Counted from the stretch's first letter, positions 42,225 to 64,000 are shown. The stretch: 64,000 nucleotides of DNA from Candidatus Micrarchaeota archaeon (GCA_964632135.1 CAZWEI010000001.1:29883-93882); one strand, 5' to 3'. Numbers and translations are program-made. Notes: generated by a model not told the origin, from the letters alone.

Positions 42225-43676
42225 TCACGCTACCTCGCTCTCGTCTGATTTCCTGCGCTTTGCCCCGTAGTCGCTCATTCCCGCGCGCCACCACGAGTCG
42301 TACCTCTCGCTCACCTGCTCCTCTATGCTCCTTCCGCGCTTGAGCGCCGCGCGCACGTGCTTCTCGTCTATCAACTCGCTGCCATCCGTGACCGCGAGGT
42401 CGCCTGCCAACTTTATTATCCCGCTGAGGTCCCGCAGGCGCAGCGTGAGGCCGACGACGTCGTCTATGGATTTTGCGCGCGCCCTCGCCTCGTCAAGAAG
42501 CACGGCAACTGCCTTCGAGTTTGCGTGTGGAATCCTTCCATCTTTCCTTATCTCCTGCGCGATGAACTGCACGAGTTTTTTCCTGTTCTCATCAGTGTCG
42601 GGCATCGTGGTGCCCAGCAGCACCTCGTATCCGTTGCCCAGTATGCGCGAGCGCAGGGGTGGGAGGAGATGATCCATGTCATTCGTGTTGAGCGCGCCTA
42701 TGAGTATGAAGTCGCACGGCACGTTGTCAACGCGTATTGATGCGCCTGTGCTCGATGCGTTGCGCCCGGCAATCGGGAATTTCTTCTCCTGCATGGCTGT
42801 CAGAAGATATCTCTGCAAATATCCAAGCGTCGCTATCTCATCAATAAATAAAACGCCCTCGTGCGCCTCGTGAATCGCGCCCGGCACCACGCGCAAGTAA
42901 GCGGCCATTCCAATCTCCGGATGACCGCCGTATGGATCGTGCTTCACATCGCCGACAAGTTCGGTCTCGCTCGCGCCCGTCGCCTGAATGAACGTGTTTC
43001 GCTGAAGAGGAAGAATTATTTTGCGCGGGCGCTTTGATTCTATTTCTTCAATTTTCCGCAAAGATGACTGGTCATAGATGCGAATCTTTCCCTCCTCGTC
43101 GCGCTCGTAAAGAACGACCTCCTCGCGCCCGTCCGGGAATGCGCGCGTCGTGTGAACGCGGTCCTCCCTCACCTCGCCCATGAACCCGAAAATCAAATCG
43201 TCAAATGGGGACAACTCGCGGCGGTATTTATCCGCCCCGCACTTTGGGCAGACCGGCGTGTTGAAGTTGCTGAGGTTCCCGCACCTTTTGCACCTGAACC
43301 CGAGCCTCTCGGCGACGAACGACGGAACCTCGGAAGCGGAAAGCATCTTGCCCTCGAATTCCTTCGGCTTCCTATCCTTCACTATTTTCTCGCGGTCGCG
43401 CACCTCAATCACTGGCCGCTCTGGGTTTTCCGGATTGTGGAGAACGGAGACCTCCTGCGTCGGCTGCGGGAGTATGAATGCAATCGCCTGCGCGAGCATG
43501 CTCTTCCCTGTGCCCGGAGGGCCGACGAGAAGGAGATGACGGCGCTGCCTCGCGACCACGCGCGCTATCTTAACTACCTCGTCCTGCCCGATTATCATTT
43601 CTAGAGGATTTTTAGGCAGAATGATTTCCCGCGTGCTCTCGAAATCGAGGAAGCCGGCGCGCGCGTCTGGTTCCAT
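42225..43676 (-). CDS. LonB-type AAA+ ATPase without the protease domain; a zinc ribbon replaces the LonB membrane anchor
   Basis: QDEVVKIARVVARQRRHLLLVGPPGTGKSMLAQAIAFILP closely matches the archaeal LonB N-terminus. A CKRCGN...CPKCG insert sits between Walker A and B. Sensor-2-like RLRDLSGIIKLAGDLA...KHV is present. The protein ends there, with no Ser-Lys protease domain. Confidence 0.65.
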   Translation of the reverse strand: MEPDARAGFLDFESTREIILPKNPLEMIIGQDEVVKIARVVARQRRHLLLVGPPGTGKSMLAQAIAFILPQPTQEVSVLHNPENPERPVIEVRDREKIVKDRKPKEFEGKMLSASEVPSFVAERLGFRCKRCGNLSNFNTPVCPKCGADKYRRELSPFDDLIFGFMGEVREDRVHTTRAFPDGREEVVLYERDEEGKIRIYDQSSLRKIEEIESKRPRKIILPLQRNTFIQATGASETELVGDVKHDPYGGHPEIGMAAYLRVVPGAIHEAHEGVLFIDEIATLGYLQRYLLTAMQEKKFPIAGRNASSTGASIRVDNVPCDFILIGALNTNDMDHLLPPLRSRILGNGYEVLLGTTMPDTDENRKKLVQFIAQEIRKDGRIPHANSKAVAVLLDEARARAKSIDDVVGLTLRLRDLSGIIKLAGDLAVTDGSELIDEKHVRAALKRGRSIEEQVSERYDSWWRAGMSDYGAKRRKSDESEVA

Positions 43677-43722
43677 GTGAATAGTTCAGCACAAAAATTT
43701 TATATATTTTTGGAAATGCTCG

Positions 43723-46143
43723 CTACTGTAATAAAAGGCATTTTCCCTCACCTAAGTTACAATCTGAGTAGCAGCAGTCCCAATCATCGCTACAATCTCC
43801 TCCATCGGGAACACACGCAACACCACCACATATACCGCTAGTGCATGATACGCCAGGGCAACAGTCGCTATCCTGAGTGCACTCTTCGCCGTTAATTCGA
43901 CATGACTTACATTTGTAACCTGTAGTATCGCAATAGCCCGCATATTGGACGTCCTGAATGTCGTCGTAGGATCCGCAGCATTGGTACACCCCTATTTCAC
44001 CAAACAATATGCGCTCTTGCTCCAGGGTAAAAGAGGATGCGGCGCCGCGCTGGTCCTTAGGCGTAAACAGCATAACTCCTGTGCCTGGACCTTTGGATAG
44101 CCCAACTTGACAATTGGAGCCTGTAGCAACACAATACGCGCATGTGTTGTTGGTACCGTAACAAAACGCTCCATCCTCGTGATAGCAACACTCATCACTG
44201 GTTGCACACATTCTGCCTAATGCCGTGCATTCCGGGCAGATATTGGCTGCGTCACACGTAACGGCGGGGTTGCAGCAGTCCCTGTATTTTTCACCGGTTC
44301 CACTGTCAACACCACAACCCCAATAACCCGTAAGAGTGCAGTTCTGGCACGTTCCTTCGTAGCAAGCCGCGTCGTATCCATAGCCCATCGTATTTTCATT
44401 ATAACCGCAGCAGTCCTCGTTTTGCGTGCAGCTCTCGGTCAAGGCGCTGCATAATGGCGGAATGTAGCGGCACGTGCAGTCCGTCGCGTTTACCGCCCAG
44501 TTTATGGGACATGTTACGCCGGAGCAGTCGCACTGGCAGTTACTGTCGTTGCGCTTTCCGCCCGCTGTTTCGTTGCAGGAGTTCTGGCAGTCGCATGAGC
44601 AGTCGGTAGTGAGGTGTATGGGTTGGTTGTTGCACATCGTTTCTGAAATCTGCTGCTGTCTTGCGGGGTCGCCGCAGTTGCACGCGCAGTCCATGTTGTA
44701 CGTGCCTCCGTGGCAGTCGTTTGAGCAGTGGCAGACGCAGTACTCGTCAAGAGCCCCGCCAAACGCGCACGTCGCATTCGTGCAGTCGCAGGTGCAGTCA
44801 GGATAAGGCGCCTGCTGCTCGCCGTTGCAGCTCCAGTAACAAGACGAGGACGAGTATGAACAACCCCATCCCTCCTTGCAGCAAAGCCCGTTTGGATTGC
44901 AGTAAAAGCCAGTGCAGCATGTTTCGTTGTCGCTTTCGTTGTAAGGACCTACTTTGCAATTTGACGGGTGGTGCGTGCATATGGATTTGGGGAATTTGAA
45001 TTCGCATCGTTCGGTCGTGGAGTTGCAGGTATAGCCTGGGCAGCACGGGGCAGAGGAATTGCAGGGCAATGGATTTGCGCAATGAACGCAAGTCCCATGG
45101 GAATCAGTGCAGCAGTTTTGAGTACTGTTCCAAACCGAACCGTACGGACAGCAACTAGACGTAGGGCAGGTTGCTGGATATGCTACGGGATCGCATGTTC
45201 TTTCCGCCGGGCATGCAAAAACGCACACCCCGGCGCTGTTGGTACAGCATTTCTGGGTCGCATTCCAAACAGCGCCGGCTGGACAGCAGCCCGAGGAGGG
45301 GCAGGTTATCGGATAGAGCATATGGCTGCACATTCTTTTTGCAGGGCATGACGGAGTTGTTGCGCATTCCCCGGTGCCGTCTAAGCAGCAGGGTTCAGGG
45401 GAGGAACCGCTGGCACCCCAACTGGTGCCGGACGGACAGCAGCCTGAGGATGGGCACGTCGCGGGATTAGCCGCTGGATTACACGTTCTTTCTATTGGGC
45501 AGAAAGAAACGCAAACTCCGGCGCTGTTTGTGCAGCAGTTTTGCGTTGTGTTCCAAATTGTGCCGACAGGGCAGCAATCCGTCGCGGGGCATGTTGCGGG
45601 GTGAGCGGAATGGCTGCACTCTCTCGCTGTCGGGCATATGAATAGGCACGTTCCGAAGTTGTCAAGGCAGCAATTTTGTGTATTATTCCAAACCGTAAAT
45701 TTTGGACAACAGCCGGAGGATGGACAAGTTTCAGGGTATGCCGACGGATTGCACCGCATGTCAGGCAGACAAAGAGATGAAATGCATTTCATTTGATGGC
45801 AAACAGAATCAGGACAGCATGCGTATGGATCTCCTTGAGGCACGCCAACTTTGCATTTGGGCGGATTTGAACAAGAGATGTAGGCGCATATTCCGTATTT
45901 GTCAGTGCAGCAGTTCTGAACAGTGTCCCAAACCGTGTTTGTAGGGCAGCATCCTGATGGAGGACACACCGCGGGGTATGCCGATGGGTCGCATTGCCGA
46001 GCAGTTGGACAAGTTGGCTTGACCGGAACAACCCCGCTTGTTTTGCATAGGAGCGCGATTAGGAGAAGCAGGATCATGCCTCCTACAAGAACCCCGAGTT
46101 TCTCTTGCGGTGAAGAGCCGGGACGGGCAGGCATTGGTTCCAT
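43723..46143 (-). CDS. 806-aa secreted or anchored Cys-rich tandem-repeat glycoprotein
   Basis: N-terminal signal/anchor; at least six ~45-aa repeats of the form C..A.P..CP.SGCCP.G..WN.TQNCCT.S.G.CV (visible also as ~135-bp DNA repeats); about 110 Cys in total; many N-x-S/T sequons. Confidence 0.55.
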   Translation of the reverse strand: MEPMPARPGSSPQEKLGVLVGGMILLLLIALLCKTSGVVPVKPTCPTARQCDPSAYPAVCPPSGCCPTNTVWDTVQNCCTDKYGICAYISCSNPPKCKVGVPQGDPYACCPDSVCHQMKCISSLCLPDMRCNPSAYPETCPSSGCCPKFTVWNNTQNCCLDNFGTCLFICPTARECSHSAHPATCPATDCCPVGTIWNTTQNCCTNSAGVCVSFCPIERTCNPAANPATCPSSGCCPSGTSWGASGSSPEPCCLDGTGECATTPSCPAKRMCSHMLYPITCPSSGCCPAGAVWNATQKCCTNSAGVCVFACPAERTCDPVAYPATCPTSSCCPYGSVWNSTQNCCTDSHGTCVHCANPLPCNSSAPCCPGYTCNSTTERCEFKFPKSICTHHPSNCKVGPYNESDNETCCTGFYCNPNGLCCKEGWGCSYSSSSCYWSCNGEQQAPYPDCTCDCTNATCAFGGALDEYCVCHCSNDCHGGTYNMDCACNCGDPARQQQISETMCNNQPIHLTTDCSCDCQNSCNETAGGKRNDSNCQCDCSGVTCPINWAVNATDCTCRYIPPLCSALTESCTQNEDCCGYNENTMGYGYDAACYEGTCQNCTLTGYWGCGVDSGTGEKYRDCCNPAVTCDAANICPECTALGRMCATSDECCYHEDGAFCYGTNNTCAYCVATGSNCQVGLSKGPGTGVMLFTPKDQRGAASSFTLEQERILFGEIGVYQCCGSYDDIQDVQYAGYCDTTGYKCKSCRINGEECTQDSDCCPGVSCTSGICGGVACVPDGGDCSDDWDCCYSDCNLGEGKCLLLQ
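45100..46020. repeat. tandem ~135-bp coding repeats (Cys-rich module array)
   Basis: Repeated DNA segments such as ...gcaaactccggcgctgtttgtgcagcagttttgcgttgtgttccaaa... and ...gcacaccccggcgctgttggtacagcatttctgggtcgcattccaaa.... Confidence 0.6.
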
Positions 46144-46187
46144 ACGGTTTACAACCCCGAGTGTTTATCTTTTTATTTGTTTATAAA

Positions 46188-49100
46188 CTATTCGGCGCGG
46201 CATTTGTACTCATCGTACAACTGCATTATGCGCGAGGGATCGCACATCGTGCTGTTCGTCTCGTTTGCAGCGCACATCGTCATCGTCAATCCTTGCGAGC
46301 GGTAGTAATAGTCCGCGCATCCCTTGAACCATTCCTCGAATCCCTCCTTGCGCGCGTAAGCAGGCGGACCGGTGGTCAAACCGTAATTACCCGTGAGCGG
46401 CTGGCACGTGCCGTCCATCAGGCAGTATTGCGCGATTCCGGAAATCCCGGCGCCTGTGAGTTGGTATGTTTCTTTTTCGTACATTTCCGCGAACGCAGCG
46501 CCGACGCCTTTTCCGGCGCACGCGCCGACGCCCACGCCTTCCAGATTATAGGAGAGAATAACTGTCGGCTTTGTGTAATTGTACACCACGAACCTCGAAA
46601 GATTTTTAATCTCGTCCCACGCCCTGCTCGCGTTGCACACGCATTCTCCTCCTGTCTCCTCGCATATTGAACTCGTGTTCGCGAAAACGATGAAACCCAC
46701 CATGTCGGTGCTGTTGCGCGCGAGCCGCATTATGTTTTGTATATCAGCCTCTGTCGCGCCTGGAAGCCTGACCGCGAAAGTGGTCGTGCAGTTCGCGCAC
46801 TCTTTCGTGATGTTTTTCAATTGGTCCGCGATGCAGTTTTGATTTGAAAGGGGGATGGAGATGTCCTGCGTGAGAAGCGTGGGCCACGAGGGGCCGAACG
46901 GGTTGTATTTTTTGTAGTAGAACTTGTCCCAGAAAGGAGTCATGTACTCTGGATTGTTGTCAAGATAACTGTTCAGTTTTTGCGCGAGAGGAACAACGTC
47001 CGCCCCTGAGCAGGCGCCAGGGGCAAGAGTGATGAGGAGCGAGAGGCCGGTCGAGACGTCTGTTATTGTTATATCTACGGACGGCATCGTAATGCACTGC
47101 GTCTCGTTCGGCGCGAGGGAAATTAACGCAGGTAGCGGGGGCGGATTTGGCGCGAGCGAAAGTTGGTGGTTCCTGTTGTCCAGATTGTAGAAGCATATCC
47201 GCGTCCCTTCTTTCGCGCTCATATTCATCGAAGGCTCGAAGAGTTGGTCGATTATCGGGACCACGATGTCGTACGTGTAACTGACTATCCCCTCGCGGTT
47301 GTTGCTCACGCAGTCGATGAGCGTGTGCCTTCCCACATCTGGCGACCAGCAGTACGGGCTCGTCTGGTTTATGGTCGGGAGCAGGCTCGCGTTGTAGCCC
47401 CCTCCTGGACGCTCCTGGATGAGAAGGAGCCTGTACCCCCCTGCGTATGCGCCGCTCGCATTCCAGCAGACCGTGCTGCCCGGCGAAGTTGTCACGACCT
47501 CCTGCGAGAAGTTCATCTCAGCGAGGGAAACCTCTCTCGTGCCGCCGACAATCGGCATAGTCACATCAACGGTCATGCAGCCCATCTGGCTGCTGTCAAA
47601 GGTTGAAGGACAACTCACCTCAGGGACGTACAGCGTCATTCTTGTCGGCGGGGTTACGTCGCATATTCTTAAACTATAATCGCCTCCTCCGACATCCTCG
47701 AGTTGTATTTTCACTGCCGAGCGCGCGGGAACAACTACGTTTGGCGGCGAGACAGGAACGACCCACGCGTACTGGCCGGCAGGAAGGCCGGTGAAGCAAA
47801 CGCTATCATCCTCGTGCACGGATAGAGTGCTCCACGGGGACGGGCTGGTCAGATCCGGATCGTTCATATCTATGTCCGCGCCATAGTAGAATGTTTCCGT
47901 GGAGGAGCGTTTGCAGGTGGAAATACTTACGTGCGTGGCGAAGGTGAGCGCGATCGGGAAGGTCATGTTCGCGCCCGCAGCAAGGTGGTATTCCACGCCA
48001 TTGAGCGAGAACCATCTCGCATACGCGCCGCCGTTGTTGATAATTTTTGGAATCACCCTGCTGTAGCGCACCCCTTTATCAAGCATCGAATAGGAGCACC
48101 AGCAGAGATTCCACACGTTCTGGTCAGTGCAGTTGTCATAAACCCAGTCGCCGCAAAAGTCATCTATGCATTTGTCAAACGGCTGCTGCAGGGTGAGGTT
48201 GATCGCCGAGGTATCGGTGAACTCGCTTGAGTTCAGAACGTTCATATTGAATTTCTTGTGATCGCCAAAAATATCGCGGTAATAGACTTCATACGAGCCG
48301 ACCGGGAAGTTGAAGCACTGGCCGTTGCTGAATCTGAAGCCATTGAAGAAATTGTAATCTATCGAAAGGACTCTGTCCTTGTACCCGCGGTTTTTGAAGT
48401 AGAGCTCGTTATTGTTTGTCGTGAGCGTTGAGGGAGTGAACGGGGCGAATGTGAGGCTTATGATCGCGCTCAGGTTTTGGACATCTACAGTATATCTGCG
48501 CGCGGACACGTCGTCTTCGAGCACGTACGAGCCAGCAGAGATGTTTGAGACGTTGCGCGTTCCGCCTGGCGGGAGGGTTAGCGACCCTAGCCACGAGCCG
48601 CTCTGCGCGAGAGTGTGGCTCAAGCGGTCGATGTTCCTCCAGGAGACGTTGCTTCCCGCGGGCACGCCGTAATATTCATCGAGCAGCAGGCCGGAAATAT
48701 CAACGCGCATGGTCTCATCCGCGCCCCCGCTGTTGAAAACGAGCGCGGTCAGGACATCCTGATTCAGGAGGTCTTTCAGGTTCATCAGCGTGACAGTCCC
48801 TATGTCCCCGAAAACATCCTGGACCGCGAGCCCGAGGCTCAAATTCGATTCGGTCGCAGGGCCGATGAAATAAACGTCCTGCGAGAACGCCTTCGACTCC
48901 TGGATGATGAGCGTGCTCGTCGCGTTCGCGGTCGCATTGTCTGTTGCATTTATTGGATATTCGTACTCGTAGTAGAACTGCCTCACGCCTACTGTGGAGG
49001 GTACTGAAGACTCGAGGTCCCAGAAAATTCGCTGGTTCGGACTTACGGTCTGCCCGGTCCAAAAGTCCATTGGAACGTCCACTGTTCTGGTGCGCGCGAA

Positions 49101-54694: not shown

Positions 54695-55780
54695 TCAGAT
54701 TATTTTCACGAGCGAGGTGAAATCGATCTCCGCGCCCAGGAGGGACGCGAGGGACCTCGTGAACATTATCGTGGCGATGAGGCACATAAGCGGCAGCAGC
54801 ACCGCAGCGACGACGGACATGTAGAGCATCGGCCCGAAATCCCCCTCGTAAGTCATTTCCTTCACGAACTCCGAGGGCGCGCTCCCTCCCCTGTTGAACA
54901 TGTCGTCGATTATGTCGCGCGCGTTCCCCGCCATCGCGAGCGTGAGGCTGCCACTGCATTTGTAGGTGTTGCAGTGGTCGCGGACTATCTGCTCGGACGC
55001 GAGATACGTGAGCGGAAGAACGATGTAGAAACCAATCGAAATCGCGATGAACGCGCCGCCTGCCATCCTCGTGAACGGGAACGCGCGCAGCGCAATCCCC
55101 ACAGGAAGGAAGAACGCGAACATGTAATCGCGCGCGAACTCGAGGAGCATCTCCTGCGCGCGCAACTGTATTATCGAAAGCGAGAGGATGGAGAGCGCGT
55201 AACCGAACATGTCCATGACGGGCCTGAACGCCGCGCCGGGCACAATATCAAACGTGAGCGCCTGCTTTATGTCGAACATCAGCGTCATCGAGGCGATTGC
55301 ACCCGCGAGTATGTCGAAGTGAATCATCGTCTTCACGTAGCCTGTTATCTGCTCCCGGAGGGCGCGCGCATATGCGACGGCGTGGTTCTGGAGCGCGTTC
55401 CAGTCGCCCGCGCACGAGAACGAGGAGTATGTGTAAGTGCCGGTGCCATTCAAGAAATTTGTGCTGCAGAACGCGGGGAACAGCATGGTGTTCAGGTACC
55501 AGTCCGCGGAGATGAGCATCCCGAGCATGAACGCCGTCGCCGCTAGTTGGTAGAACTCGTTGCGCGCGAACGAGATGAGGTTGTTCGAATTCACTCCGGT
55601 GCCCACCGCGTATATGAGCGCCATCACCGTGAGCATGGTGAGCAGGACTATGAGCGTCACTGTCTGCCATCTCTGGCACCAGACGGACGTGCAGTCCGCA
55701 CGAACAAGCGTTGAGAGCAGCACTAACGCGACGAAGGCGAGCAGAATTTTTCTTGCGTTCTTCATTGCCGGTTTTTTCAT
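54695..55780 (-). CDS. polytopic membrane protein, same paralog family, member 3 (Cys-containing N-terminal extension)
   Basis: ARNEFYQL; FLPVGIALRAFPFTRMAGGAFIAISIGFYIVLPL; C-terminal SLLGAEIDFTSLVKII. Confidence 0.55.
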   Translation of the reverse strand: MKKPAMKNARKILLAFVALVLLSTLVRADCTSVWCQRWQTVTLIVLLTMLTVMALIYAVGTGVNSNNLISFARNEFYQLAATAFMLGMLISADWYLNTMLFPAFCSTNFLNGTGTYTYSSFSCAGDWNALQNHAVAYARALREQITGYVKTMIHFDILAGAIASMTLMFDIKQALTFDIVPGAAFRPVMDMFGYALSILSLSIIQLRAQEMLLEFARDYMFAFFLPVGIALRAFPFTRMAGGAFIAISIGFYIVLPLTYLASEQIVRDHCNTYKCSGSLTLAMAGNARDIIDDMFNRGGSAPSEFVKEMTYEGDFGPMLYMSVVAAVLLPLMCLIATIMFTRSLASLLGAEIDFTSLVKII

Positions 55781-57135: not shown

Positions 57136-57141
57136 TCAAGC

Positions 57142-58050
57142 TCACTCCATCAGTTGATAATCATACGTGAATACTGTCACGAGCACACGAATAAACGTGA
57201 TTGTGATTATGAGGTTGAGCGCGGGAAGAAAGACGGCCTGCGGGAGCATCATCCCGATCGTCTGGAACGTGTTGCACACTGTCCCGTGCCCCATCTCCGA
57301 GAAGACGTCGGAGAGCCCGCTCCTCCCGGAACTGCACCACTCCGTGAAACTCCTGTCCAGGCTCACCTCCTCCATCACCTTCATATCGAAAACGTACGTG
57401 AGCGGGAAGACGATGAAAAACCCTATTGCTATCGCCATAAGGTACGCGCCTGCCTCGCGCATGAACGGGACTGTCCTCAAAATGAAGCCTATCGGCAATA
57501 GGAATATGAAGAACGTGTCCTTCACGAACGAGAGGAAAAGTTTCTGGAAAAGAAGGCTCGCCGAAATGGGCGTTACGAGAAACGCGAGGGTCTCGAAAAG
57601 GTAACTCGCCGTGCCGTAGCCTGCGAGTGGAGAGAAGCAGAACAGACCCGTGCAGCTCGGAATCGCAATGCTGAACGCGGCCTTTCTCTGCGCGCTCAGG
57701 CTCATGTCAAACAGGGACTGGACAGCAGGCACCATCTTGCCCCATATCAACCCGTGGAGGTATTTGTCAGAGACCTTGAAGGGGTCTGCGCCTGCCACTC
57801 CCTGTGAAATATCGCATGAGAGCAACGCGAACGAGATGACGCCGCCTATAAGTATGCACGCGACTATCGTCTGGTAGAGTTCGCCCTTCGCCCAGAACTC
57901 CCAATCGGTGCGGCGCGTGAACTGGGAAATCATGTACACGAGCGCGACCAGGAAGAACGAGATGAGAAGGGCTAGCGCCATGAACGGAACCCAGTTCCAA
58001 TAGTCCGACTGGAATGTGCAGTAGTACGTTAGCGCAGCCATTTGGGACAC
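57142..58050 (-). CDS. polytopic membrane protein, same paralog family, member 5 (lacks the shared C-terminal motif)
   Basis: AKGELYQT; LLPIGFILRTVPFMREAGAYLMAIAIGFFIVFPL; ends ...VFTYDYQLME, six nt before the next gene. Confidence 0.5.
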   Translation of the reverse strand: MSQMAALTYYCTFQSDYWNWVPFMALALLISFFLVALVYMISQFTRRTDWEFWAKGELYQTIVACILIGGVISFALLSCDISQGVAGADPFKVSDKYLHGLIWGKMVPAVQSLFDMSLSAQRKAAFSIAIPSCTGLFCFSPLAGYGTASYLFETLAFLVTPISASLLFQKLFLSFVKDTFFIFLLPIGFILRTVPFMREAGAYLMAIAIGFFIVFPLTYVFDMKVMEEVSLDRSFTEWCSSGRSGLSDVFSEMGHGTVCNTFQTIGMMLPQAVFLPALNLIITITFIRVLVTVFTYDYQLME

Positions 58051-58071
58051 CTGTGCACACAGCTCATAATT

Positions 58072-59826
58072 TCATATGAACTCCGCAAGACCGGTTATTC
58101 TCGCCTCTCCTCCGAGAGCTGTTGAGAGCGAGCGCATCGCCGTTACAACTATTATCAAATCAAGTATTGGGAAGACGAACGCTGCGATGATGGGCTGCAT
58201 CATCCAGGGCACGGCGTCGGCGTAATAATCAAAACCGCTTCCAGCCACTTCGCCAACTCCCGGATAGAAAACGCTCGCGATCATGACAAGAACGAAAGCG
58301 ATGATTTGGATGAACGCCCACACCATGCTCCATATCCACATTATTATTGCAAAAAAGAAACACCAGGGGAACTTCCACCACTTGTCGCAGTAGTGCGAGA
58401 ACCTCGGGCCCTGGAACGCGTCGGTTATGCTCCCCATGTCGAGCATTTTCAGCGGGAGAGCGCCCCAGTATTCTTCCCGCGGTATCGGGGTAACCGAGCT
58501 GTATATCTCGTTGTTCATGACAAGGGTGAGCGGATAAACTACGTACGCGCCTATTGCGACCGCCATCAGCGTCGCGCCCAATTTCCTCGTGAGCGTGAAC
58601 GAGCGCAGGACGACGCCTATTGGCAGGAATATTTTGAACATCGTCTCTGAGATGAATTGGAGTAGGACGAACTGTCCTATCATCGAGAAGAGCGCGAGCG
58701 AAATGAGGTTCGCGCCCGTGTTTATTATATTGGAAATTATCGAAAGTCCGTAGAATGGCGAGAACGAAAAGGAGAACCCCAGGAAAATTGGGAACAGGCC
58801 TATCACCGGGGGCGGTACTGCCCCGGCGCCCCCTTCTGAAGGAGGCTTGGGGCACTGCTTCCCGATGCACGTGCCAAAGCCCGCGCCTCCTCCGAGATAC
58901 TGAATCAGACCTATCCCGAACTCCGCCTTCACTGTTTTTCCAAATGCGGCGAGGAGGTCGCCTGACACGCGGTTCGTGTAGCCCTGCGCTATGCTCATGT
59001 AGTCCTCGCCGCTGACAGTCCCAAAGTCTTGGATGACGGTGTTGGACAAAAAGACGAGGAATATTATGCTGCCCACGAACCACACGGAAACGGAAACCTC
59101 CACGAATTCCCTTCTCGCGTAAGCGTGGAGTTCAGGGGAATGGAGGAATGAGGCGACCATTATCAGCAGCGCGACTAGCATGTAGCCGATTATTAGCGCG
59201 ACGAGCGTTATCGGAACCCATGTGTTCCACGCGTCAACCGTGAGCGTGCTGCCGAGAATCGAGGACGAGAAATTCGTGCACGCGTTGTTAAAGCAGTACT
59301 GGCCGCCTGAGCATGGGCAGTCCTCGCAGCAGAAGGAGGTGTTTTCAAAATATGGCGAGCCGGAATCGCAGGTCCCGTTGTAGTTGCAGCATGGGGTGAC
59401 GAGGCGCGTGGCGCACGCTCCCCAGTGGCAGTATTTTTCTCTGCAGATTTCAGTCGCAGGGCCTATGCAGCCCGGCGCAGGCGCGCCGTTGATTCCGACA
59501 TACTCGCATTTGGAGGTCACCGCTTCCAAAGGGGCGTACACCACGTCGTCACTCGCGTTGTATAGAACGCACGTTTTGTAGCCGCATATAAAGAGCTCGT
59601 AGCACTGGCATTGGGTATCATTGTATATGCAAAAAGGCGTGTCGTCCCTGACGCACTTATACGTATCCGGATCGCAGCGCTCGAGCGTGCACGGCTCCTT
59701 GTCGTGGTCGCATTGGGTTAGGTTTGCTGAGAACGGGTCGCAGGACTCCCCGAGCGCGTGAGCGGGCTTGGCGAACAAAAACAATATCACAAATAGTAAC
59801 ACGATTGTCTTTGGCAAGGAGTTCAT
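58072..59826 (-). CDS. polytopic membrane protein, same paralog family, member 6 (signal peptide plus ~200-aa Cys-rich N-terminal ectodomain)
   Basis: More than 30 Cys in the first 200 aa; ARREFVEV; FLPIGVVLRSFTLTRKLGATLMAVAIGAYVVYPL; C-terminal TALGGEARITGLAEFI. Confidence 0.55.
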   Translation of the reverse strand: MNSLPKTIVLLFVILFLFAKPAHALGESCDPFSANLTQCDHDKEPCTLERCDPDTYKCVRDDTPFCIYNDTQCQCYELFICGYKTCVLYNASDDVVYAPLEAVTSKCEYVGINGAPAPGCIGPATEICREKYCHWGACATRLVTPCCNYNGTCDSGSPYFENTSFCCEDCPCSGGQYCFNNACTNFSSSILGSTLTVDAWNTWVPITLVALIIGYMLVALLIMVASFLHSPELHAYARREFVEVSVSVWFVGSIIFLVFLSNTVIQDFGTVSGEDYMSIAQGYTNRVSGDLLAAFGKTVKAEFGIGLIQYLGGGAGFGTCIGKQCPKPPSEGGAGAVPPPVIGLFPIFLGFSFSFSPFYGLSIISNIINTGANLISLALFSMIGQFVLLQFISETMFKIFLPIGVVLRSFTLTRKLGATLMAVAIGAYVVYPLTLVMNNEIYSSVTPIPREEYWGALPLKMLDMGSITDAFQGPRFSHYCDKWWKFPWCFFFAIIMWIWSMVWAFIQIIAFVLVMIASVFYPGVGEVAGSGFDYYADAVPWMMQPIIAAFVFPILDLIIVVTAMRSLSTALGGEARITGLAEFI

Positions 59827-59946
59827 TATTCGCGCACCAATAGTATTTCGTAGAAGGGTTTTAATCCTTTGCTGAGTTGTACTCCGCGCAACGTCTCGCG
59901 CACGCGCTTAGGATAAATATATAAACTTCGGAGAGGATACACAATC

Positions 59947-62900
59947 ATGCGGGCGTTAGCGTTCGTTTTTGCCTGTTCGCTGTTTCTGTTTCTGTTAGCG
60001 AACCCTGCGCTCGGGCAGACGTGCGCTGTTGGGAAACTGCCCACCTACATAGAAGTTACAACCGTTTCAAACGAGAACGTTGGCACGCTGGAGGCAAAGG
60101 CGACCCTTTATTACGTTGATGATTTCAGGAAGACGACCGGCGTGCTTCCTTACCAGGACGTCTATTTTCAAAAATGCCCGTCAGGCTGCCCGCCGGGCAG
60201 CAAAATATGCGACCTGGGCTGCTGCGACAACGCAGGCGGACGTTACTGCGGCCCCTCCACACTGAGGTTCTGCCTTCCTTCGGAATGGATGTGCGACAGG
60301 GGCTGTTGTTTTGCAGATGCAAGCACAATAAAGGGCAGGACCGACAGCAACGGGGAGGCGTTCGCGGTTTTTCCAAAGGACAACATATCCGTGGTCGCGA
60401 TGTACAAGGGGGGCGACAGGTATTTCCCGAGCAACAGCAGCGGCACGTACGGCTCGAGCCCGCTCGGGAACATCACGCTGGGCGCGTGCTTCCCGCTGTT
60501 CCTCCTTCTCGGCCTCCTTCTCGTGGCGATGGGCGCCGCGGGATACAACCCCCTCGGTATGTTTGATTTCTCCGCGGTCCGCGTCCCGCGCGCGCGAATC
60601 CGTCCGCTCATCAGCTTCCAGATGAGCTCGCGCGCGATAACCGCATCACTGGCTCTGGGCGCGAAAAGGAACTTGGAAAAGGCGAGTGTCGACCTGCAGA
60701 TGCTGAAGGACTTGAAGGCCAAGCTCGGCAATGAAACCGACCCAGGCAAGAAAAAGGAATTGCAGAATAAAATCGATGGCCTAGAGAGCAAATACGGTAA
60801 ACAGGACGCAAAAAAAATCGCAGACTCTGAAAAAAAACTCAAGGACGTCGCGCGCGAGTTGCAGGAGGAGAAGAAAAAGGGGAAGAACGCCGACCCGGGA
60901 AAAATCGCAAGTTTGAAAAAAGAGTTGGACGATGAAAAGCGCAGTTTGCATCTGGAAAAAGGCAAGACTGGGCGCAGCGTTGAGGAAACCATCGAACATC
61001 TGAAGAAACAGGTTAGGTTCTTTGAGAACCTTACGAGTCCGCAGCCAGTTAAAATGGGCAAAGTAGTGGACGTTATAACCGGCGCGCCTGTCGCAGGAAT
61101 GGCTATAAGAGCGATAGGAAAAGCGCTCAAAGGGAAGAAACACGAAGAGAAAAAAACTGAAGAAGGCGGAGAAACTCAAGAGAAGATGGTCCAACGGGTC
61201 AAGACAGTCAAGGATGTAACAGTGCTCGGGAAAGCCTCTGGCACAGTTTGGAAGGGAGCGAAATTCGTCGCTAAGATGACCCTCTGGTCGTTCAAGGCCC
61301 CTTTTGCAGGGATAAAGAAATTCGGCGAGTGGTGGGACGAGTTTGCAAAGAGCAAGGCAGGCCGGGGCATCTTTAGTTTCTTGGGAATCGTAACTTTCGG
61401 CATGGCTGGAAGGAAGGATTACGGCACGAACATAAGCATTGGTCCTGTCACGTTCTACGCAGGGAGCCCAGGATACATAGAAACGGTGTATGGCTGGATG
61501 GATGCGCGGGCATTACTGATGCAGCAAAACAAGAAGGTCGTGAAACAGATAGGCGATGCTCTTGAGATTGACGGGGACGTGGTTTGGGTGACGATTGCAA
61601 GCGGGTATTTTAGCATTGGCGGCGCCGGGGCAAGAAGAGATGACGTTCTGAGAGAGGAACACAGGATTCACAAGGACAAAGATGGCAATGTCGTGGAAAA
61701 ACTGGTTTCCAGCAAGGCGACGGAAGGCAGCGGCGAGAACGTGAAGGACGTGGTGCTTTACAAGGACATGCGCAAGGACAAGGACAATAATGTTTATGTG
61801 AATGGCGTTTACGTTAGGGAGGCCGACGGCACGATTTCTGAGGTGGAGTTGAATGAGAAGGGAGAGCCGATACTCGATAGCGAGGGGAAATTCAAGAGGG
61901 TCGGCAAGCCGCTGGTGATTTATGAAACCGGAAAGAAGCACGGGCTGGTTCTGCTCGAGCCGACTGGCGTGATAGAAGCCTATCAGGGGAAGGAAGGCAA
62001 CACGTCATTTGCGCGCGCGCTTATACGCAAAGTCGTTGGAGTGCTGGGTTTCGCGGACGCAGTGGCCGGCGCATTTGTCCCGTTGCGGTACGGGATGATG
62101 AGCCGCAGAATCTATGATACATCAACAGGAACGGCGGAGATAGGAGTTGCAGAGCCAGAGGACAAAATTGTTTTCATGGCGCTGGATGCAATTGAGAGGA
62201 GCAGAACTGCTGCCGAGAGATACAAGGAAGATGTGATGGATCTCGCCAAGCATAGCAGCATGCAAGACGAGATAAGAAGGATACTTGATGACAAAACGCT
62301 CGCGCCGAATGAAAAATTTGAAGCGCTCAGCACGCTGCTGAAACGGGCCTATGAAAAGAAAGCGCCTCCTGAGGACAGAGGAAAAACCATACTGAGAAAA
62401 ATATTTACTGGCGAAGGCAGCAAGCAGGAGGATGAGGAGGAGGACGTTAAAATACTCACAAAGATACTGACGCGATACAGGTGGATGATGGAAGCCGAAT
62501 CCAGCGCGAGTATGGGCCAGGACCACCTTGAGATGATAAACGCGATGAGCGTGAGGCGCGCGAGGCTTCAGAAGGGCGATAGGGAGATAGATGAAGCAAA
62601 GGAAAAGCTTGCTGACGCGAGCAAGTCATTTGGGTTATCCGTGCCGGAAGCGTGGGAAGTCCTCTACGACAACCTAGGCGAGCACAGAAAAAAAATAACC
62701 GAGAAAAGCGAGGCGCTGAAGAAGGACGCGACTGCGAAGGAGAGCAAGAAACTCGACGAAAAGACAAAAGAAATAATGCAGAAATTAGATGAGTATGTGA
62801 ACACTGTTCGCAGGAACTACGCTGACAACGAGTTCCAGGCCGGCGTTGCTCTTGGACTTATCTATGTGACTTCAAAACGCATAGATGAGATCGACAAGAA

Positions 62901-64000
62901 GATCAAAAAAGAAGATGATGAGGACAATAAAAACGCGCTTAGGAATGAGAGGGAGCAATGGGATAACCTGCAGGATTTTGTTTATGAGTTCAAGCCTAGC
63001 GGAGAGCGGACCGCGAGCATCTCCGCGCTGTTGAAGTCAGTTGTTGAGGGAAAAGACGGCAGGGATAAGCTCACGGCCAAAAGGGATGATCTCACGGCTG
63101 AAGTGGAGAAGTACAAAAAGGAGGTTTACTCGGTCGAGGATGCGTATTACGGTGTGGCTAGGGTGGACGCCATCAGGACTGCAAAAGAAGGGGGGATTGA
63201 AAAAATTGATGAGTTAAGAGAAACATCCGCGAAGACCGGAAATGAAAACGAATCGAAGTTGTTGAGGACGTTGGAGATTGACGGGCTGAGGAAAAAGGCG
63301 GTTGATACTGGAAATCTGAAAGAAAACGAACTGAAGTTATTGACGAAATTGGGGATCGAGGAACTTGACGAACGCAGGAGAGCGGCAAGAGACGCGGGAA
63401 CGCCAAGTGAACTCGTTTTATTGACTGAGTCGGAGATTTCTGATCTTAGGGGGTTAGCTGTGAGTAAGGAAAGATTGGAAGAGGACAAGCTTAAACTTTT
63501 GACTGAGTCGGAAGGGAGGCTGGAAAAGGAGTTGCTAAACCCTCGACTACCGGAGTCCGTGCCTCGTAGGGACGTGGAAGAATACGTTCTTCTTTCCGAG
63601 AATAAGATGGGGGAAGCCTGCAACACGTTTAAAGAAACATTCGGAATTGAACCGACGCCCGAAAACGTAAATGCAATGTACGAAGAACTCGCCAACCAGC
63701 CCAGCATGGAGCAGATTCTTGCAATGCGCGCGTATCCGCAGATTAAGGGGGCCATGGATGAGACGCGTTCTATGCTAACCGAGGGTCTTGACAAAGCGGG
63801 ATATTTCGACGAATTCAAGAAAAACCCGGGGCTACTTTCAGAAAATGACGGCTATAGATATGAGGAGAGTAAAGACAAGTACAAAGAAGAAGAAGCGGAA
63901 AACCAGCACTTCGACGGTATCTTCAACCCGGAGGAGCCTGGCGCGCTGTTCTACAATGCAATCGAGTTGCTTGAGCAGGAGGAGATGGATCCTGAGAAGA
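59947..64000 (+). CDS. giant membrane-anchored coiled-coil protein (more than 1350 aa, 3' end beyond the window): signal peptide, Cys-rich ectodomain, single TM, long repetitive charged coiled-coil region
   Basis: The + frame is open from the ATG at 59947 to the window end (4054 nt). MRALAFVFACSLFLFLLANPALG signal; about 160-aa Cys-rich region; TM LGACFPLFLLLGLLLVAMGAAGY; then K/E-rich heptad-like sequence with internal repeats (ENESKLLRTLEIDGL / ENELKLLTKLGIEEL / ELVLLTESEISDL / KLKLLTESEGRLEKEL). Not in the ORF track because no stop occurs in the window. Confidence 0.55.
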   Translation, partial: MRALAFVFACSLFLFLLANPALGQTCAVGKLPTYIEVTTVSNENVGTLEAKATLYYVDDFRKTTGVLPYQDVYFQKCPSGCPPGSKICDLGCCDNAGGRYCGPSTLRFCLPSEWMCDRGCCFADASTIKGRTDSNGEAFAVFPKDNISVVAMYKGGDRYFPSNSSGTYGSSPLGNITLGACFPLFLLLGLLLVAMGAAGYNPLGMFDFSAVRVPRARIRPLISFQMSSRAITASLALGAKRNLEKASVDLQMLKDLKAKLGNETDPGKKKELQNKIDGLESKYGKQDAKKIADSEKKLKDVARELQEEKKKGKNADPGKIASLKKELDDEKRSLHLEKGKTGRSVEETIEHLKKQVRFFENLTSPQPVKMGKVVDVITGAPVAGMAIRAIGKALKGKKHEEKKTEEGGETQEKMVQRVKTVKDVTVLGKASGTVWKGAKFVAKMTLWSFKAPFAGIKKFGEWWDEFAKSKAGRGIFSFLGIVTFGMAGRKDYGTNISIGPVTFYAGSPGYIETVYGWMDARALLMQQNKKVVKQIGDALEIDGDVVWVTIASGYFSIGGAGARRDDVLREEHRIHKDKDGNVVEKLVSSKATEGSGENVKDVVLYKDMRKDKDNNVYVNGVYVREADGTISEVELNEKGEPILDSEGKFKRVGKPLVIYETGKKHGLVLLEPTGVIEAYQGKEGNTSFARALIRKVVGVLGFADAVAGAFVPLRYGMMSRRIYDTSTGTAEIGVAEPEDKIVFMALDAIERSRTAAERYKEDVMDLAKHSSMQDEIRRILDDKTLAPNEKFEALSTLLKRAYEKKAPPEDRGKTILRKIFTGEGSKQEDEEEDVKILTKILTRYRWMMEAESSASMGQDHLEMINAMSVRRARLQKGDREIDEAKEKLADASKSFGLSVPEAWEVLYDNLGEHRKKITEKSEALKKDATAKESKKLDEKTKEIMQKLDEYVNTVRRNYADNEFQAGVALGLIYVTSKRIDEIDKKIKKEDDEDNKNALRNEREQWDNLQDFVYEFKPSGERTASISALLKSVVEGKDGRDKLTAKRDDLTAEVEKYKKEVYSVEDAYYGVARVDAIRTAKEGGIEKIDELRETSAKTGNENESKLLRTLEIDGLRKKAVDTGNLKENELKLLTKLGIEELDERRRAARDAGTPSELVLLTESEISDLRGLAVSKERLEEDKLKLLTESEGRLEKELLNPRLPESVPRRDVEEYVLLSENKMGEACNTFKETFGIEPTPENVNAMYEELANQPSMEQILAMRAYPQIKGAMDETRSMLTEGLDKAGYFDEFKKNPGLLSENDGYRYEESKDKYKEEEAENQHFDGIFNPEEPGALFYNAIELLEQEEMDPEK

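What the first reader, a model, noticed from the sequence alone, without database searches (positions are those of the whole stretch)
42225..64000. Candidate novel cell-envelope system: ten-gene operon of six paralogous polytopic membrane proteins, two giant Cys-rich glycoproteins and a protease-less LonB-type ATPase, plus a divergent giant coiled-coil membrane protein
From 59826 down to 42225, ten minus-strand genes are separated by only 6-46 nt: six paralogs, a 245-aa anchored protein, a 1888-aa protein, an 806-aa protein, and a LonB-like AAA+ ATPase. An operon-like arrangement is strongly implied. The six consecutive paralogs share NE[LIF]YQ and LPIGxxLRxFPxTRxxGGxLMAIAIGxYxVxPL, and five of the six share a C-terminal amphipathic LG[GA][DE]V[DE]I..LTR[LI][LI]. 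Three of them carry extra Cys-rich extracellular N-terminal domains, echoing the Cys-rich modules of the co-encoded giant secreted proteins. I cannot assign the paralog family to any transporter, secretion or assembly family I know. I considered T2SS-F/FlaJ, VirB6/TrbL, Wzy, SecY, FtsX and archaeosortase from memory and none fits. The adjacent giant proteins are signal-peptide bearing, heavily sequon-decorated and extremely Cys-rich; the 1888-aa protein has no C-terminal TM anchor. A cytoplasmic AAA+ engine closes the operon. A divergently transcribed gene of more than 1350 aa encodes a single-pass protein with a Cys-rich ectodomain and a very long cytoplasmic (or surface) coiled coil. Together this looks like dedicated machinery for exporting, anchoring, or assembling giant surface structures (adhesion, cell-cell contact, or an unusual S-layer-like array), not a known system.
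Basis: partly seen in the sequence, partly recalled or inferred. Interest (0 to 1): 0.9.

Follow-up and report, generated by a model that had tools for sequence, protein, structure and literature searches.

The report
Six-gene VirB6-like membrane array, DPANN archaeon
A tiny symbiotic archaeon (Micrarchaeota) carries six ancient copies of an uncharacterised membrane protein that elsewhere sits in the channel position of conjugation-type (type IV secretion-like) machines; here the copies are coupled to giant cysteine-rich surface proteins, which makes this a strong candidate for the unknown apparatus these cells use to dock onto their hosts.

Summary
Ten tightly packed minus-strand genes and a divergent gene of more than 1350 aa are present as described.

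The six paralogs (PAR) belong to a large, unannotated DPANN family of about 3000 clusters at 50% identity. Every sufficiently long related locus holds exactly six PAR genes in the same orthologous order, which argues for a six-subunit hetero-oligomer.

- **Type C relatives.** The same six-pack is flanked by VirB2/TrbC-like pilins and a CedB/VirB4-like ATPase.
- **Minimal relatives.** Single-copy PARs lie in pilin–PAR–ATPase triads. PAR therefore occupies the CedA/VirB6 position of an archaeal T4SS-like module.
- **Supporting signals.** These are weak CedA/CedE profile hits, pilin-PAR fusions, and a pilin-like N-terminal hairpin.
- **Negative tests.** A high-confidence AlphaFold model (pLDDT 92) matches no PDB fold, and Pfam TrbL does not hit.

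The window holds a "type A" variant with no pilin or ATPase. Instead it has a conserved 245-aa anchored protein, a conserved giant cupredoxin-repeat glycoprotein, a lineage-specific 806-aa Cys-repeat protein and a conserved divergent tail-bearing membrane protein.

The LonB-like ATPase is a ubiquitous housekeeping neighbour, not a co-conserved engine.

Verdict: an undescribed variant of a known kind. Its function (host-contact platform) is inferred.

The parts
58072..59826 (-). PAR position 1 (584 aa). Signal peptide, about 190-aa Cys-rich (28 Cys) ectodomain, then the polytopic PAR core.
   Evidence: Its best hits in other arrays are at position 1.
57142..58050 (-). PAR position 2 (302 aa). 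The only paralog lacking the C-terminal LGxxV/I..L motif, in this array and in the related arrays read (L002, L003, L060).
55789..57135 (-). PAR position 3 (448 aa). Lipobox-like signal (MFGC), a short Cys-rich N-terminal domain and a large extracytoplasmic insert.
54695..55780 (-). PAR position 4 (361 aa). The member with a weak match to the CedA model: NF041796, E 8.5e-5, residues 176-257 vs profile positions 101-183.
53666..54652 (-). PAR position 5 (328 aa; database aa). The minimal member. AlphaFold2 model with pLDDT 91.9 and pTM 0.85: all-helical with very long helices (up to about 50 residues) and one beta-hairpin.
52616..53641 (-). PAR position 6 (341 aa from TTG; database aa).
51864..52601 (-). 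g245: an N-terminally anchored, sequon-rich 245-aa protein. It is the conserved partner immediately after type A arrays and evolves fast.
   Evidence: Homologues follow arrays in L002, L004, L026, L035 and L080. Only 2 database hits.
46188..51854 (-). g1888: a giant secreted, possibly lipid-anchored glycoprotein. It has a conserved Cys-rich N-terminal domain, at least 6 degenerate cupredoxin-like repeats (motif V-x-F-x-N-x-D-x3-H-x-L) and a conserved C-terminal domain of about 330 aa.
   Evidence: weak plastocyanin/cupredoxin hits; motifs, sequons; N- and C-terminal domains shared with L002, L004, L026, L052, L073.
43723..46143 (-). g806: a signal-anchored protein with 16% Cys and about six tandem Cys-rich modules of about 45 aa, followed by further Cys-rich regions. 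It was seen only in this window, so it is a lineage-specific addition.
   Evidence: (no homologue in any fetched locus).
42225..43676 (-). Protease-less LonB-type AAA+ ATPase with a Zn-ribbon insertion. It is co-directional and 46 nt downstream of g806, but probably a housekeeping neighbour rather than part of the system.
59827..59946 (.). 120-bp divergent intergenic region with A/T-rich TATA-like elements (TTTAATCC, ATAAATATATAAAC). It presumably holds both promoters (inferred).
   Evidence: Sequence printed.
59947..64000 (+). Divergent gene (more than 1351 aa, truncated by the window end). It has a signal peptide, a small ectodomain, one TM and a long charged, coiled cytoplasmic tail. Only the ectodomain end, the TM and the juxtamembrane segment are conserved. 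There is no Walker A motif.
   Evidence: Homologues lie divergent to arrays in L002, L005, L014, L037, L040 and L055, and convergent downstream in L015.

Best explanation
The window comes from a Micrarchaeota (DPANN) chromosome and carries a 'type A six-pack'.

Shown:
- The six paralogs (PAR) are members of a large DPANN-restricted polytopic membrane family.
- Arrays of exactly six PAR genes, in a fixed orthologous order, recur across Micrarchaeota and Iainarchaeota.
- In other loci the same six-pack, or a single pre-duplication-like PAR, lies between VirB2/TrbC-like pilin genes and a CedB/VirB4-like ATPase. That is the CedA/TedA/VirB6 slot of a conjugation-type (T4SS-like) machine.
- Type A arrays instead keep a g245-like anchored protein, a g1888-like giant protein and a divergent tail-bearing membrane protein.

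Inferred:
- The six PARs assemble one of each into a pseudo-hexameric channel or platform in the membrane. Five subunits carry the C-terminal LGxxV motif and position 2 lacks it.
- In the type A variant this T4SS-derived platform no longer builds a pilus.
- It anchors, extrudes or organises giant Cys-rich, N-glycosylated surface proteins (g1888, and here also g806) through the adaptor g245.
- The long cytoplasmic tail of the divergent protein tethers the complex inside the cell.
- The result is a host-contact organelle for a cell that depends on cell-cell contact.
- Energy, if needed, comes from an ATPase encoded elsewhere.
- The adjacent LonB-like ATPase is a housekeeping neighbour.
For: Family size and taxonomy:
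- The exhaustive profile search found 3027 clusters at E<=1e-3. Named hits are Micrarchaeota, Anstonellaceae, Aenigmarchaeota and Iainarchaeum.

The array:
- Exactly six consecutive PAR genes occur in every locus with enough contig.
- In 14 complete arrays the best hit in another locus is at the same position in 968 of 1092 comparisons. Type C arrays keep the same order.

T4SS context:
- L025, L049, L059 and L060 have two pilin genes, six PAR genes and a CedB/VirB4-like ATPase. L044 and L079 show the array plus the ATPase.
- L077 and L084/85 have pilin, a single PAR and the ATPase. L061, L090 and L091 have a single PAR plus the ATPase.
- The pilins hit TrbC/VirB2 PF04956 (4e-5) and T4SS_pilin PF18895 (1e-5).
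- The ATPases' best NCBIfam hits are CedB (6e-19) and CedD (8.5e-19), then VirB4 families.
- Single PARs match the PAR HMM at 1e-32 to 1e-55 and are equidistant from all six positions.

Direct PAR links:
- The only recurrent curated-family hits among 123 members are CedA (5 members) and CedE (2 members). The two CedA matches inspected cover the same conserved hairpin.
- The position-2 PARs of L063 and L064 carry two N-terminal pilin modules (phmmer 6e-9).
- hhalign of the pilin profile against the PAR profile gives probability 78% and E 1.9e-5 on TM1-loop-TM2. This mirrors the CedA N-terminus ~ CedA1 relation reported in PMC9905601.

Type A co-conservation:
- One 76.9-kb contig holds two tandem type A modules (L035 and L026).

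LonB-like ATPase not co-conserved:
-.

Biological fit:
- Micrarchaeota have few transporters and rely on cell contact (PMC8975820).
Against: - No curated model reaches threshold. The CedA/CedE hits are about 20 bits against cut-offs above 300, and most orthologues of p361 do not hit.
- Pfam TrbL/VirB6 never hits.
- The window itself has no pilin, VirB4 or T2SSE gene. A T4SS-like mode of action for type A is therefore an extrapolation from relatives.
- The stoichiometry, the role of the giant proteins and the host-contact function are untested.
- The giant proteins that follow arrays are not all homologous; the g1888 family and the c6 family give only weak hhalign scores.
Confidence: 0.55

Rival explanations
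1. The type A six-pack is still a nucleic-acid conduit. It would be a Ced-like DNA (or nucleotide-scavenging) import or exchange channel that uses pilin and CedB-like ATPase genes encoded elsewhere. The giant Cys-rich proteins would serve only as species-specific docking adhesins, as Ups pili do for Ced.
For: The ATPases next to related arrays are closest to the DNA-import ATPases CedB and CedD. The core PAR motifs are nearly invariant across the 123-member alignment A5. Genomes hold several arrays (L002+L003, L010+L017, L022+L024). [quoted passage not shown]
Against: No pilin or ATPase lies within 10 kb of any type A array examined. Type A has its own conserved partner set (g245, giant protein, tail-bearing protein), which argues for a changed function. 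The substrate cannot be read from the sequence.
Confidence: 0.17
2. PAR arrays are platform proteins of a type IV filament (Tad, archaeal pilus or archaellum-like) system, analogous to TadB/C, PilC or FlaJ and driven by a CpaF/FlaI-type ATPase.
For: In L003 and L012 a T2SSE ATPase directly follows a type B array. Its closest solved relatives are archaeal GspE, CpaF and FlaI.
Against: The adjacency is seen in only two closely related hot-spring MAGs out of 11 type B loci. No PAR member hits T2SSF or FlaJ models. The pilins found next to arrays are VirB2/TrbC-type two-helix pilins, not class III signal-peptide pilins. T2SSE also includes VirB11, so this neighbour is compatible with a T4SS.
Confidence: 0.07
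3. One reading: a self-contained ten-gene export and assembly system unrelated to known machineries and powered by the protease-less LonB-type ATPase.
For: All ten genes are co-directional with gaps of 6-46 nt. The ATPase lacks both the protease domain and the membrane anchor, so it could have been recruited as an unfoldase.
Against: The ATPase is ubiquitous, far more conserved than the array genes, and elsewhere lies beside Toprim/CBS genes without arrays. The same Toprim/CBS genes flank it in the window. Other type A loci lack it. The PAR family has T4SS-type partners elsewhere.
Confidence: 0.06
4. PAR arrays are a core envelope or transport complex unrelated to secretion, for example lipid or metabolite uptake, S-layer anchoring or a division-associated membrane complex. 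The T4SS-like neighbours would then be a secondary association.
For: Type B arrays sit in conserved housekeeping synteny: LeuRS upstream, and FtsZ pairs, Trm56 or TFIIE downstream. No secretion partner is present. The fold is not matched by any solved secretion component.
Against: Recurrent pilin-PAR-ATPase triads and pilin-PAR fusions are hard to explain otherwise. The Micrarchaeota S-layer protein is a different, Cys-poor PF05123 protein.
Confidence: 0.12

Closest known systems
Ced / Ted systems of Crenarchaeota (CedA1/TedC pilin, CedA/TedA VirB6-like channel, CedB/TedB VirB4-like ATPase; PMC9905601, PMC11868833)
   Same: Relatives of the window's paralogs lie in the same three-part gene arrangement, pilin - polytopic protein - CedB-like ATPase. 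Some have a split CedB N-terminal domain. PAR gives weak CedA/CedE profile hits. Its N-terminal hairpin resembles the cognate pilin, as reported for CedA and CedA1. A CedA + CedE hetero-oligomer has been proposed in Saccharolobus.
   Different: There are six fixed paralogs instead of one or two. The family is restricted to DPANN and matches no curated model at threshold. The window's type A locus has no pilin or ATPase; it is coupled to giant Cys-rich glycoproteins and a tail-bearing membrane protein.
Bacterial VirB6/TrbL (e.g. TrwI of R388; stalk complex 8RT9) and the five tandem VirB6 paralogs RvhB6a-e of Rickettsia (PMC2653234)
   Same: It is a polytopic inner-membrane component placed between a VirB2 pilin and a VirB4 ATPase. 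As in Rickettsia, VirB6-like genes have proliferated in a host-dependent lineage with a reduced genome, and they carry large, divergent extra domains (PAR members of 1100-1680 aa).
   Different: There is no Pfam TrbL/VirB6 match. The high-confidence model gives no significant structural match to TrwI. R388 VirB6 is a homopentamer (my own knowledge of that structure; not checked here), whereas here six distinct subunits are implied. There are no VirB3/5/7-10 homologues.
Nanohaloarchaeal 'SPEARE' giant proteins with VirB4/TraG-like ATPase domains (PMC10266531)
   Same: It is a DPANN setting that combines giant surface proteins, a TM segment, a cytoplasmic coiled-coil region and T4SS-type parts, and it has been proposed to act on the host.
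   Different: Here the giant proteins carry no ATPase domain and no Ig repeats recognised by Pfam. The T4SS-type part is the VirB6-like array rather than VirB4. No sequence relationship was found.
Archaeal LonB protease (TIGR00764; PDB 3K1J/4ZPX)
   Same: The AAA+ module of the 483-aa protein aligns with Thermococcus LonB at E 2e-86 and with TIGR00764 at 2e-108.
   Different: There is no protease domain: the alignment stops at about position 402 of the 608-position model. The score of 363 bits is below the 517-bit cut-off. A Zn-ribbon insertion replaces the membrane anchor. It is not co-conserved with the array.

Membership tests
Ced/Ted-type archaeal T4SS-like module | A polytopic CedA/TedA-like protein encoded with a VirB2-like two-helix pilin (CedA1/TedC) | tested here: met
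   Met for the family, not for the window. Pilin genes (PF04956 4e-5, PF18895 1e-5) lie directly upstream of PAR genes in L025, L049, L059, L060, L077 and L084/85. Pilin-PAR fusions occur in L063 and L064. The window has no pilin gene.
Ced/Ted-type archaeal T4SS-like module | A VirB4/CedB-type ATPase in the same locus | tested here: met
   Met for the family: CedB 6e-19, CedD 8.5e-19 and VirB4 families for ATPases 2-3 kb downstream of arrays or of single PARs in L025, L044, L049, L059, L060, L061, L077, L079, L084/85, L090 and L091. Not met in the window or in any type A locus.
Ced/Ted-type archaeal T4SS-like module | Sequence homology of the polytopic protein to CedA/TedA | tested here: inconclusive
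   CedA NF041796 is hit by 5 of 123 members (best 3.9e-5) and CedE by 2 of 123 (1.2e-5). These are the only recurrent families, but the scores are far below cut-off. No CedA or TedA sequences were available for a profile-profile test.
Ced/Ted-type archaeal T4SS-like module | The N-terminal hairpin of the channel protein is homologous to the cognate pilin (reported for CedA/CedA1 and VirB6/VirB2) | tested here: inconclusive
   hhalign of the pilin profile against the PAR profile gives probability 77.7% and E 1.9e-5 over 45 columns on TM1-loop-TM2. One type A PAR hits the pilin by phmmer at 7e-4. This is suggestive, but TM hairpins can match spuriously.
Bacterial VirB6/TrbL (PF04610) | Match to the TrbL/VirB6 domain model | tested here: not met
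   No PF04610 hit for the six window paralogs or for any of 123 family members at E<=0.1.
Bacterial VirB6/TrbL (PF04610) | Fold similarity to solved VirB6 (TrwI, 8RT9/7O3V) | tested here: not met
Bacterial VirB6/TrbL (PF04610) | The conserved essential Trp in the TMS-cytoplasmic region | not testable with these tools
   This needs a reliable alignment to VirB6, and none could be made. PAR has its own near-invariant residues: W19, E56, Q171, L175, G190, R194, R200, G203, P218, P297 and G316.
T2SS-F / PilC / TadB-C / FlaJ platform proteins | T2SSF domain and partnership with a T2SSE ATPase and type IV prepilins | tested here: not met
   No T2SSF or FlaJ hit. A T2SSE ATPase follows the array only in L003 and L012. 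The neighbouring pilins are VirB2-type.
Archaeal LonB protease | AAA+ module plus a membrane-anchor insertion plus a C-terminal Ser-Lys protease domain | tested here: not met
   Only the AAA+ module and lid are present. TIGR00764 scores 363 bits against a 517-bit cut-off, and the profile is matched only to about position 402 of 608. The insertion carries a CxxC...CxxC Zn ribbon, and no TM segment is predicted.
Micrarchaeota S-layer protein (SLP_Mh, PF05123) | S_layer_N domain, about 100 kDa, almost no sulfur-containing residues | tested here: not met
   g1888 and g806 have no PF05123 hit and contain 3.9% and 16% Cys.
arCOG01314-associated putative archaeal secretion system (Makarova 2015) | arCOG01314 anchored flavodoxin-like protein, MoxR ATPase, vWA protein and PF07760 membrane proteins | tested here: not met
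   None of these domains is found in the ten genes.

The most novel reading that the evidence does not exclude
The six-subunit PAR complex is the membrane core of the long-sought DPANN-host contact and feeding organelle. It would be a T4SS-derived conduit that has radiated into three specialised machines: type C builds a conjugative-type pilus, type B is a core channel, and type A is a docking device tipped by giant Cys-rich adhesins. Through it Micrarchaeota would attach to Thermoplasmatales-type hosts and exchange DNA, lipids or metabolites.
Probability: 0.25. Interest if true: 0.9.

Novelty: new variant of a known kind. Interest (0 to 1): 0.72.

Why it matters
DPANN archaea are a large part of archaeal diversity. 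They live by attaching to other cells, yet the molecular apparatus of attachment and exchange is unknown. Micrarchaeota in particular encode few transporters and are thought to depend on direct cell contact (PMC8975820).

This work identifies a conserved, multi-copy, six-subunit membrane module with demonstrable genomic ties to conjugation-type machinery. In the variant found here it is tied to giant surface glycoproteins. That gives concrete gene targets for cryo-ET, proteomics and structure prediction in the existing co-cultures (Ca. Micrarchaeum harzensis, ARM-1).

It also extends the reach of T4SS/Ced-like systems to DPANN, parallel to the T4SS recently described in the analogous ultra-small bacteria (Patescibacteria).

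Finally, it offers a striking case of a homo-oligomeric channel protein apparently replaced by six fixed paralogs, comparable to the five RvhB6 paralogs of Rickettsia.

None of the seven literature searches run returned a paper describing this family or these arrays.

Tried and rejected
- **Curated family scans.** Pfam and NCBIfam scans of the ten proteins gave no family for the paralogs, g245, g806 or g1888.
- **PDB sequence search.** A PAR profile search returned only noise, such as rhodopsins at E>0.03.
- **Foldseek.** The AlphaFold database libraries were unavailable.
- **Plasmid search.** tblastn of a single-copy PAR against PLSDB plasmids found nothing.
- **g245.** Only two homologues exist in 5.8 billion proteins, so no useful alignment for structure prediction could be made.
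- **Cys-rich domains.** No homology was detected between the Cys-rich domains of PAR N-termini, g806, g1888 and the divergent protein.
- **Giant proteins.** hhalign between the g1888 family and the other array-following secreted proteins (the c6 family, L015, L021) reached at most 65% probability over short stretches, which is not convincing.
- **S-layer reading.** Rejected for g1888.
- **arCOG01314 secretion system.** Rejected.
- **LonB-like ATPase as the system's engine.** Rejected for lack of co-conservation.
- **Window flanks.** Exact look-ups of window proteins to extend the contig beyond the window failed because they were not on record.
- **Taxonomy of metagenomic loci.** The type C and minimal modules could not be assigned to a taxon because the sources give no names.
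- **RNA genes.** No RNA genes or tRNAs were found in the window.

Full report
**1. Observation**

The ORF list and translations confirm ten co-directional minus-strand genes between 42225 and 59826. Gaps between them are 6-46 nt. A divergent plus-strand ORF starts at ATG 59947 and runs off the window: 1351 aa, with a signal peptide, a small ectodomain, one TM and a long charged tail.

- **Paralogy.** The six consecutive paralogs (PAR; 302-584 aa) are significantly similar in all 15 pairs, at BLASTP E 1e-13 to 1e-29.
- **Shared motifs.** They share the LPxGxxLRxFxxTRxxGG core, and five of the six share the C-terminal LGxxV/I motif.
- **Giant proteins.** g806 has 129 Cys (16%) and g1888 has 73.
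- **Sequons.** These exceed shuffled expectation two- to three-fold in g1888, g806 and g245.
- **Cys-rich domains.** Those of different proteins are not detectably homologous to one another.
- **Possible anchor.** g1888 and its relatives carry a lipobox-like motif (LFGC, LSSC, IAGC) after the signal peptide, so an N-terminal lipid anchor is possible. This is read directly from the sequences.

**2. Organism and setting**

Homologues carry the names Candidatus Micrarchaeota, Micrarchaeia, Anstonellaceae, Burarchaeum, Aenigmarchaeota and Iainarchaeum. The window is therefore a DPANN (Micrarchaeota) chromosome segment.

The neighbouring genes are housekeeping: thermosome, helicases, an ECF transporter, CBS and Toprim primase. 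No tRNA or Rfam RNA was found.

**3. The paralog family**

No Pfam or NCBIfam model reaches threshold. An exhaustive profile search of 1.84 billion representatives nevertheless finds 3027 clusters at E<=1e-3 and 2425 at E<=1e-10. Some are 1100-1680 aa long with large inserted domains.

In 22 species-representative genomes and 67 metagenome loci, every locus with enough sequence holds exactly six consecutive PAR genes.

Across 14 complete arrays, the best hit of each gene in any other locus lies at the same array position in 968 of 1092 comparisons. The six genes are thus six ancient orthologous groups kept in a fixed order. That is the signature of an obligate complex with six distinct subunits.

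Position 2 lacks the C-terminal motif in this window and in the related arrays read (L002, L003, L060), which suggests a 5 + 1 arrangement. This last point is inference.

**4. Three locus types**

- **Type A.** Found in the window, L002, L004, L005, L014, L015, L026, L035, L037, L040, L055 and L080. The complete layout, as in the window and L002, is a divergent tail-bearing membrane protein, six PAR genes, a g245-like anchored protein and a g1888-like giant protein. Most loci are cut by contig ends and show only the upstream or the downstream partners. The N- and C-terminal domains of g1888 are conserved in L002, L004, L026, L052 and L073. One 76.9-kb contig has two type A modules in tandem, with giants of 3234 and more than 2968 aa.
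- **Type B.** Found in L003, L008-L010, L012, L020, L022, L043, L046, L047 and L054. The layout is LeuRS (divergent) followed by six PAR genes, with housekeeping genes downstream. Only in L003 and L012 is there a GspE/CpaF/FlaI-like ATPase.
- **Type C.** Found in L025, L044, L049, L059, L060 and L079. The layout read in full in L060 is two small two-helix proteins, six PAR genes, two 2-TM proteins of about 275 aa, and an ATPase of about 514 aa (about 1050 aa in L049 and L079).

Single genomes or MAGs hold more than one array: L002 (type A) + L003 (type B), L010 (type B) + L017, and L022 (type B) + L024. L017 and L024 are arrays followed by a c6-family secreted protein.

**5. Link to conjugation-type machinery**

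- **Pilins.** The small proteins of type C hit TrbC/VirB2 (PF04956, 4e-5) and T4SS_pilin (PF18895, 1e-5) over nearly the full models.
- **ATPases.** They hit HerA/AAA_10/TraG P-loop in Pfam. In NCBIfam their best hits are CedB (6e-19) and CedD (8.5e-19), followed by VirB4, TraC and TrbE families.
- **Minimal modules.** In L077 and L084/85 the order is pilin, a single PAR, then a CedB-like ATPase. L061, L090 and L091 show the PAR and ATPase only. L085 also has a 2-TM protein matching the CedB N-terminal region.
- **Single PARs.** They are solid family members (1e-32 to 1e-55) and are equidistant from all six array positions, as expected for a pre-duplication state.

This is the gene triad that defines the crenarchaeal Ced and Ted systems: a VirB2-like pilin, a VirB6-like channel and a VirB4-like ATPase (PMC9905601; PMC11868833).

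Direct evidence for PAR itself is weaker but consistent:

- CedA (5 members) and its paralog CedE (2 members) are the only curated families hit by more than one of the 123 members, and the two CedA matches inspected cover the same conserved hairpin.
- L063 and L064 encode a position-2 PAR fused to two pilin modules.
- A pilin profile aligns to PAR TM1-loop-TM2 with 78% probability and E 1.9e-5. This echoes the reported CedA N-terminus ~ CedA1 relationship.

**6. Negative structural and sequence tests**

A first AlphaFold2 model of p328 (pLDDT 74) gave R388 TrwI/VirB6 (8rt9_F) as the hit with the highest probability and TM-score, but at E 0.6.

With a 123-sequence alignment the model became confident: pLDDT 91.9, pTM 0.85, all-helical with helices up to about 50 residues and one beta-hairpin. 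Foldseek then found nothing below E 0.1, and VirB6 was not in the top 50.

I therefore do not file PAR as a member of the bacterial VirB6/TrbL family. The claim is that it occupies the CedA/VirB6 position and is probably a very distant CedA-like homologue.

**7. The ATPase and other accessory genes**

The 483-aa protein is a LonB-type AAA+ module (E 2e-86 to Thermococcus LonB). It has no protease domain, and a Zn-ribbon insertion sits where LonB has its membrane anchor.

It is ubiquitous and 56-71% identical across Micrarchaeota and Iainarchaeota. In L028 and L029 it lies next to Toprim/CBS genes with no array nearby, and L027 also has no array nearby. The same Toprim and CBS genes flank it in the window. 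No other type A locus contains it.

Its adjacency here is best explained by synteny, not by function.

g806 was found in no other locus fetched, so it is a lineage-specific addition.

In the divergent protein only the end of the ectodomain, the TM and the juxtamembrane part are conserved. It has no Walker A motif and no Pfam domain.

**8. Mechanism (inferred)**

An ancestral pilin-PAR-ATPase module underwent a six-fold tandem duplication of the channel gene. The whole six-pack was then duplicated en bloc and diverged into types A, B and C.

In type A the pilin and ATPase partners were replaced by g245, a giant cupredoxin-repeat glycoprotein and a membrane protein with a long cytoplasmic tail.

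The most economical reading is a T4SS-derived membrane platform that holds or extrudes giant adhesin-like proteins at the surface of a cell whose life depends on contact with a host.

Alternatives are listed as rivals: a Ced-like DNA-import function with partners supplied in trans, a type IV filament platform, and an unrelated core envelope complex.

**9. Novelty**

None of the seven literature searches returned a paper describing the family, the six-gene arrays or a Ced/T4SS-like module in Micrarchaeota or Iainarchaeota.

The nearest published ideas are:

- the VirB4-like domains of nanohaloarchaeal SPEARE proteins;
- the Ced/Ted systems;
- the five tandem RvhB6 paralogs of Rickettsia.

I rate this a new variant of a known kind. 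It is of high interest because it supplies a concrete, testable candidate for DPANN-host interaction machinery.

Noticed in passing
window 42225-43676 (-): A protease-less LonB-type AAA+ ATPase with a CxxC...CxxC Zn-ribbon insertion in place of the LonB membrane anchor. It is ubiquitous and 56-71% identical across Micrarchaeota and Iainarchaeota, usually lies next to Toprim/CBS genes, and sources often annotate it as 'Lon protease' although it has no protease domain.
   Followed up: partly
window 19798-20931 (-), inside the low-GC patch at 20-22 kb (GC 0.44): A TnpB/IS605 OrfB-type gene (OrfB_IS605, Cas12f1-like TNB and HTH_OrfB_IS605 domains). It is probably a mobile element insertion.
   Followed up: no
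window 24000-30000 (GC 0.46-0.48), e.g. 26894-28345 (-): A second low-GC stretch. It holds a Schlafen AlbA_2 + HATPase_c_4 protein and may be a defence or mobile island.
   Followed up: no
L063:5791-7341 and L064:4035-5585: A position-2 PAR protein (516 aa) with two tandem VirB2-like pilin modules fused to its N-terminus (phmmer 6e-9 to the Iainarchaeal pilin). L057 shows a similar fusion, cut by the contig end.
   Followed up: partly
L035 and L026 (one JGI contig, Ga0315289_10000313, 76.9 kb): Two complete type A modules in tandem, each made of six PAR genes, a g245-like gene and a giant protein. The giants are 3234 aa and more than 2968 aa and give faint cupredoxin hits.
   Followed up: partly
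L003:12461-13774 and L012:12379-13689: A GspE/CpaF/FlaI-like T2SSE ATPase directly follows the type B array and is followed by two FtsZ genes. L020 also has an FtsZ pair right after its array. The meaning of the array-FtsZ synteny is unknown.
   Followed up: partly
L060:11915-13584 and L085:10651-11373: Proteins of about 240-280 aa with two N-terminal TM helices lie between the PAR genes and the CedB-like ATPase. The L085 protein matches the N-terminal region of CedB (1.4e-4), which suggests a split VirB4/CedB.
   Followed up: partly
proteins P0079-P0153: PAR family members of 1100-1680 aa in which the PAR core is split into two matched stretches by a very large inserted (presumably extracellular) domain. 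P0124 shows faint Big_3_3/Big_13 hits.
   Followed up: no
L002:3641-4858: A 405-aa secreted protein with 27 Cys in regularly spaced alpha-helical-looking repeats sits between the divergent tail-bearing gene and the array. It is absent from the window and has no Pfam hit.
   Followed up: no
window 10758-12539 (-): A DUF2207 membrane protein (N- and C-terminal domains, E 1e-28 and 1e-52). It is followed by ORFs at 13273-14481 and 14379-15491 that have no Pfam hit.
   Followed up: no
L028:5760-6038 (Ca. Gugararchaeum): A lone small two-helix protein weakly similar to the VirB2-like pilins (phmmer 6e-4). It lies near Hjc/CBS genes with no PAR array within 10 kb.
   Followed up: no
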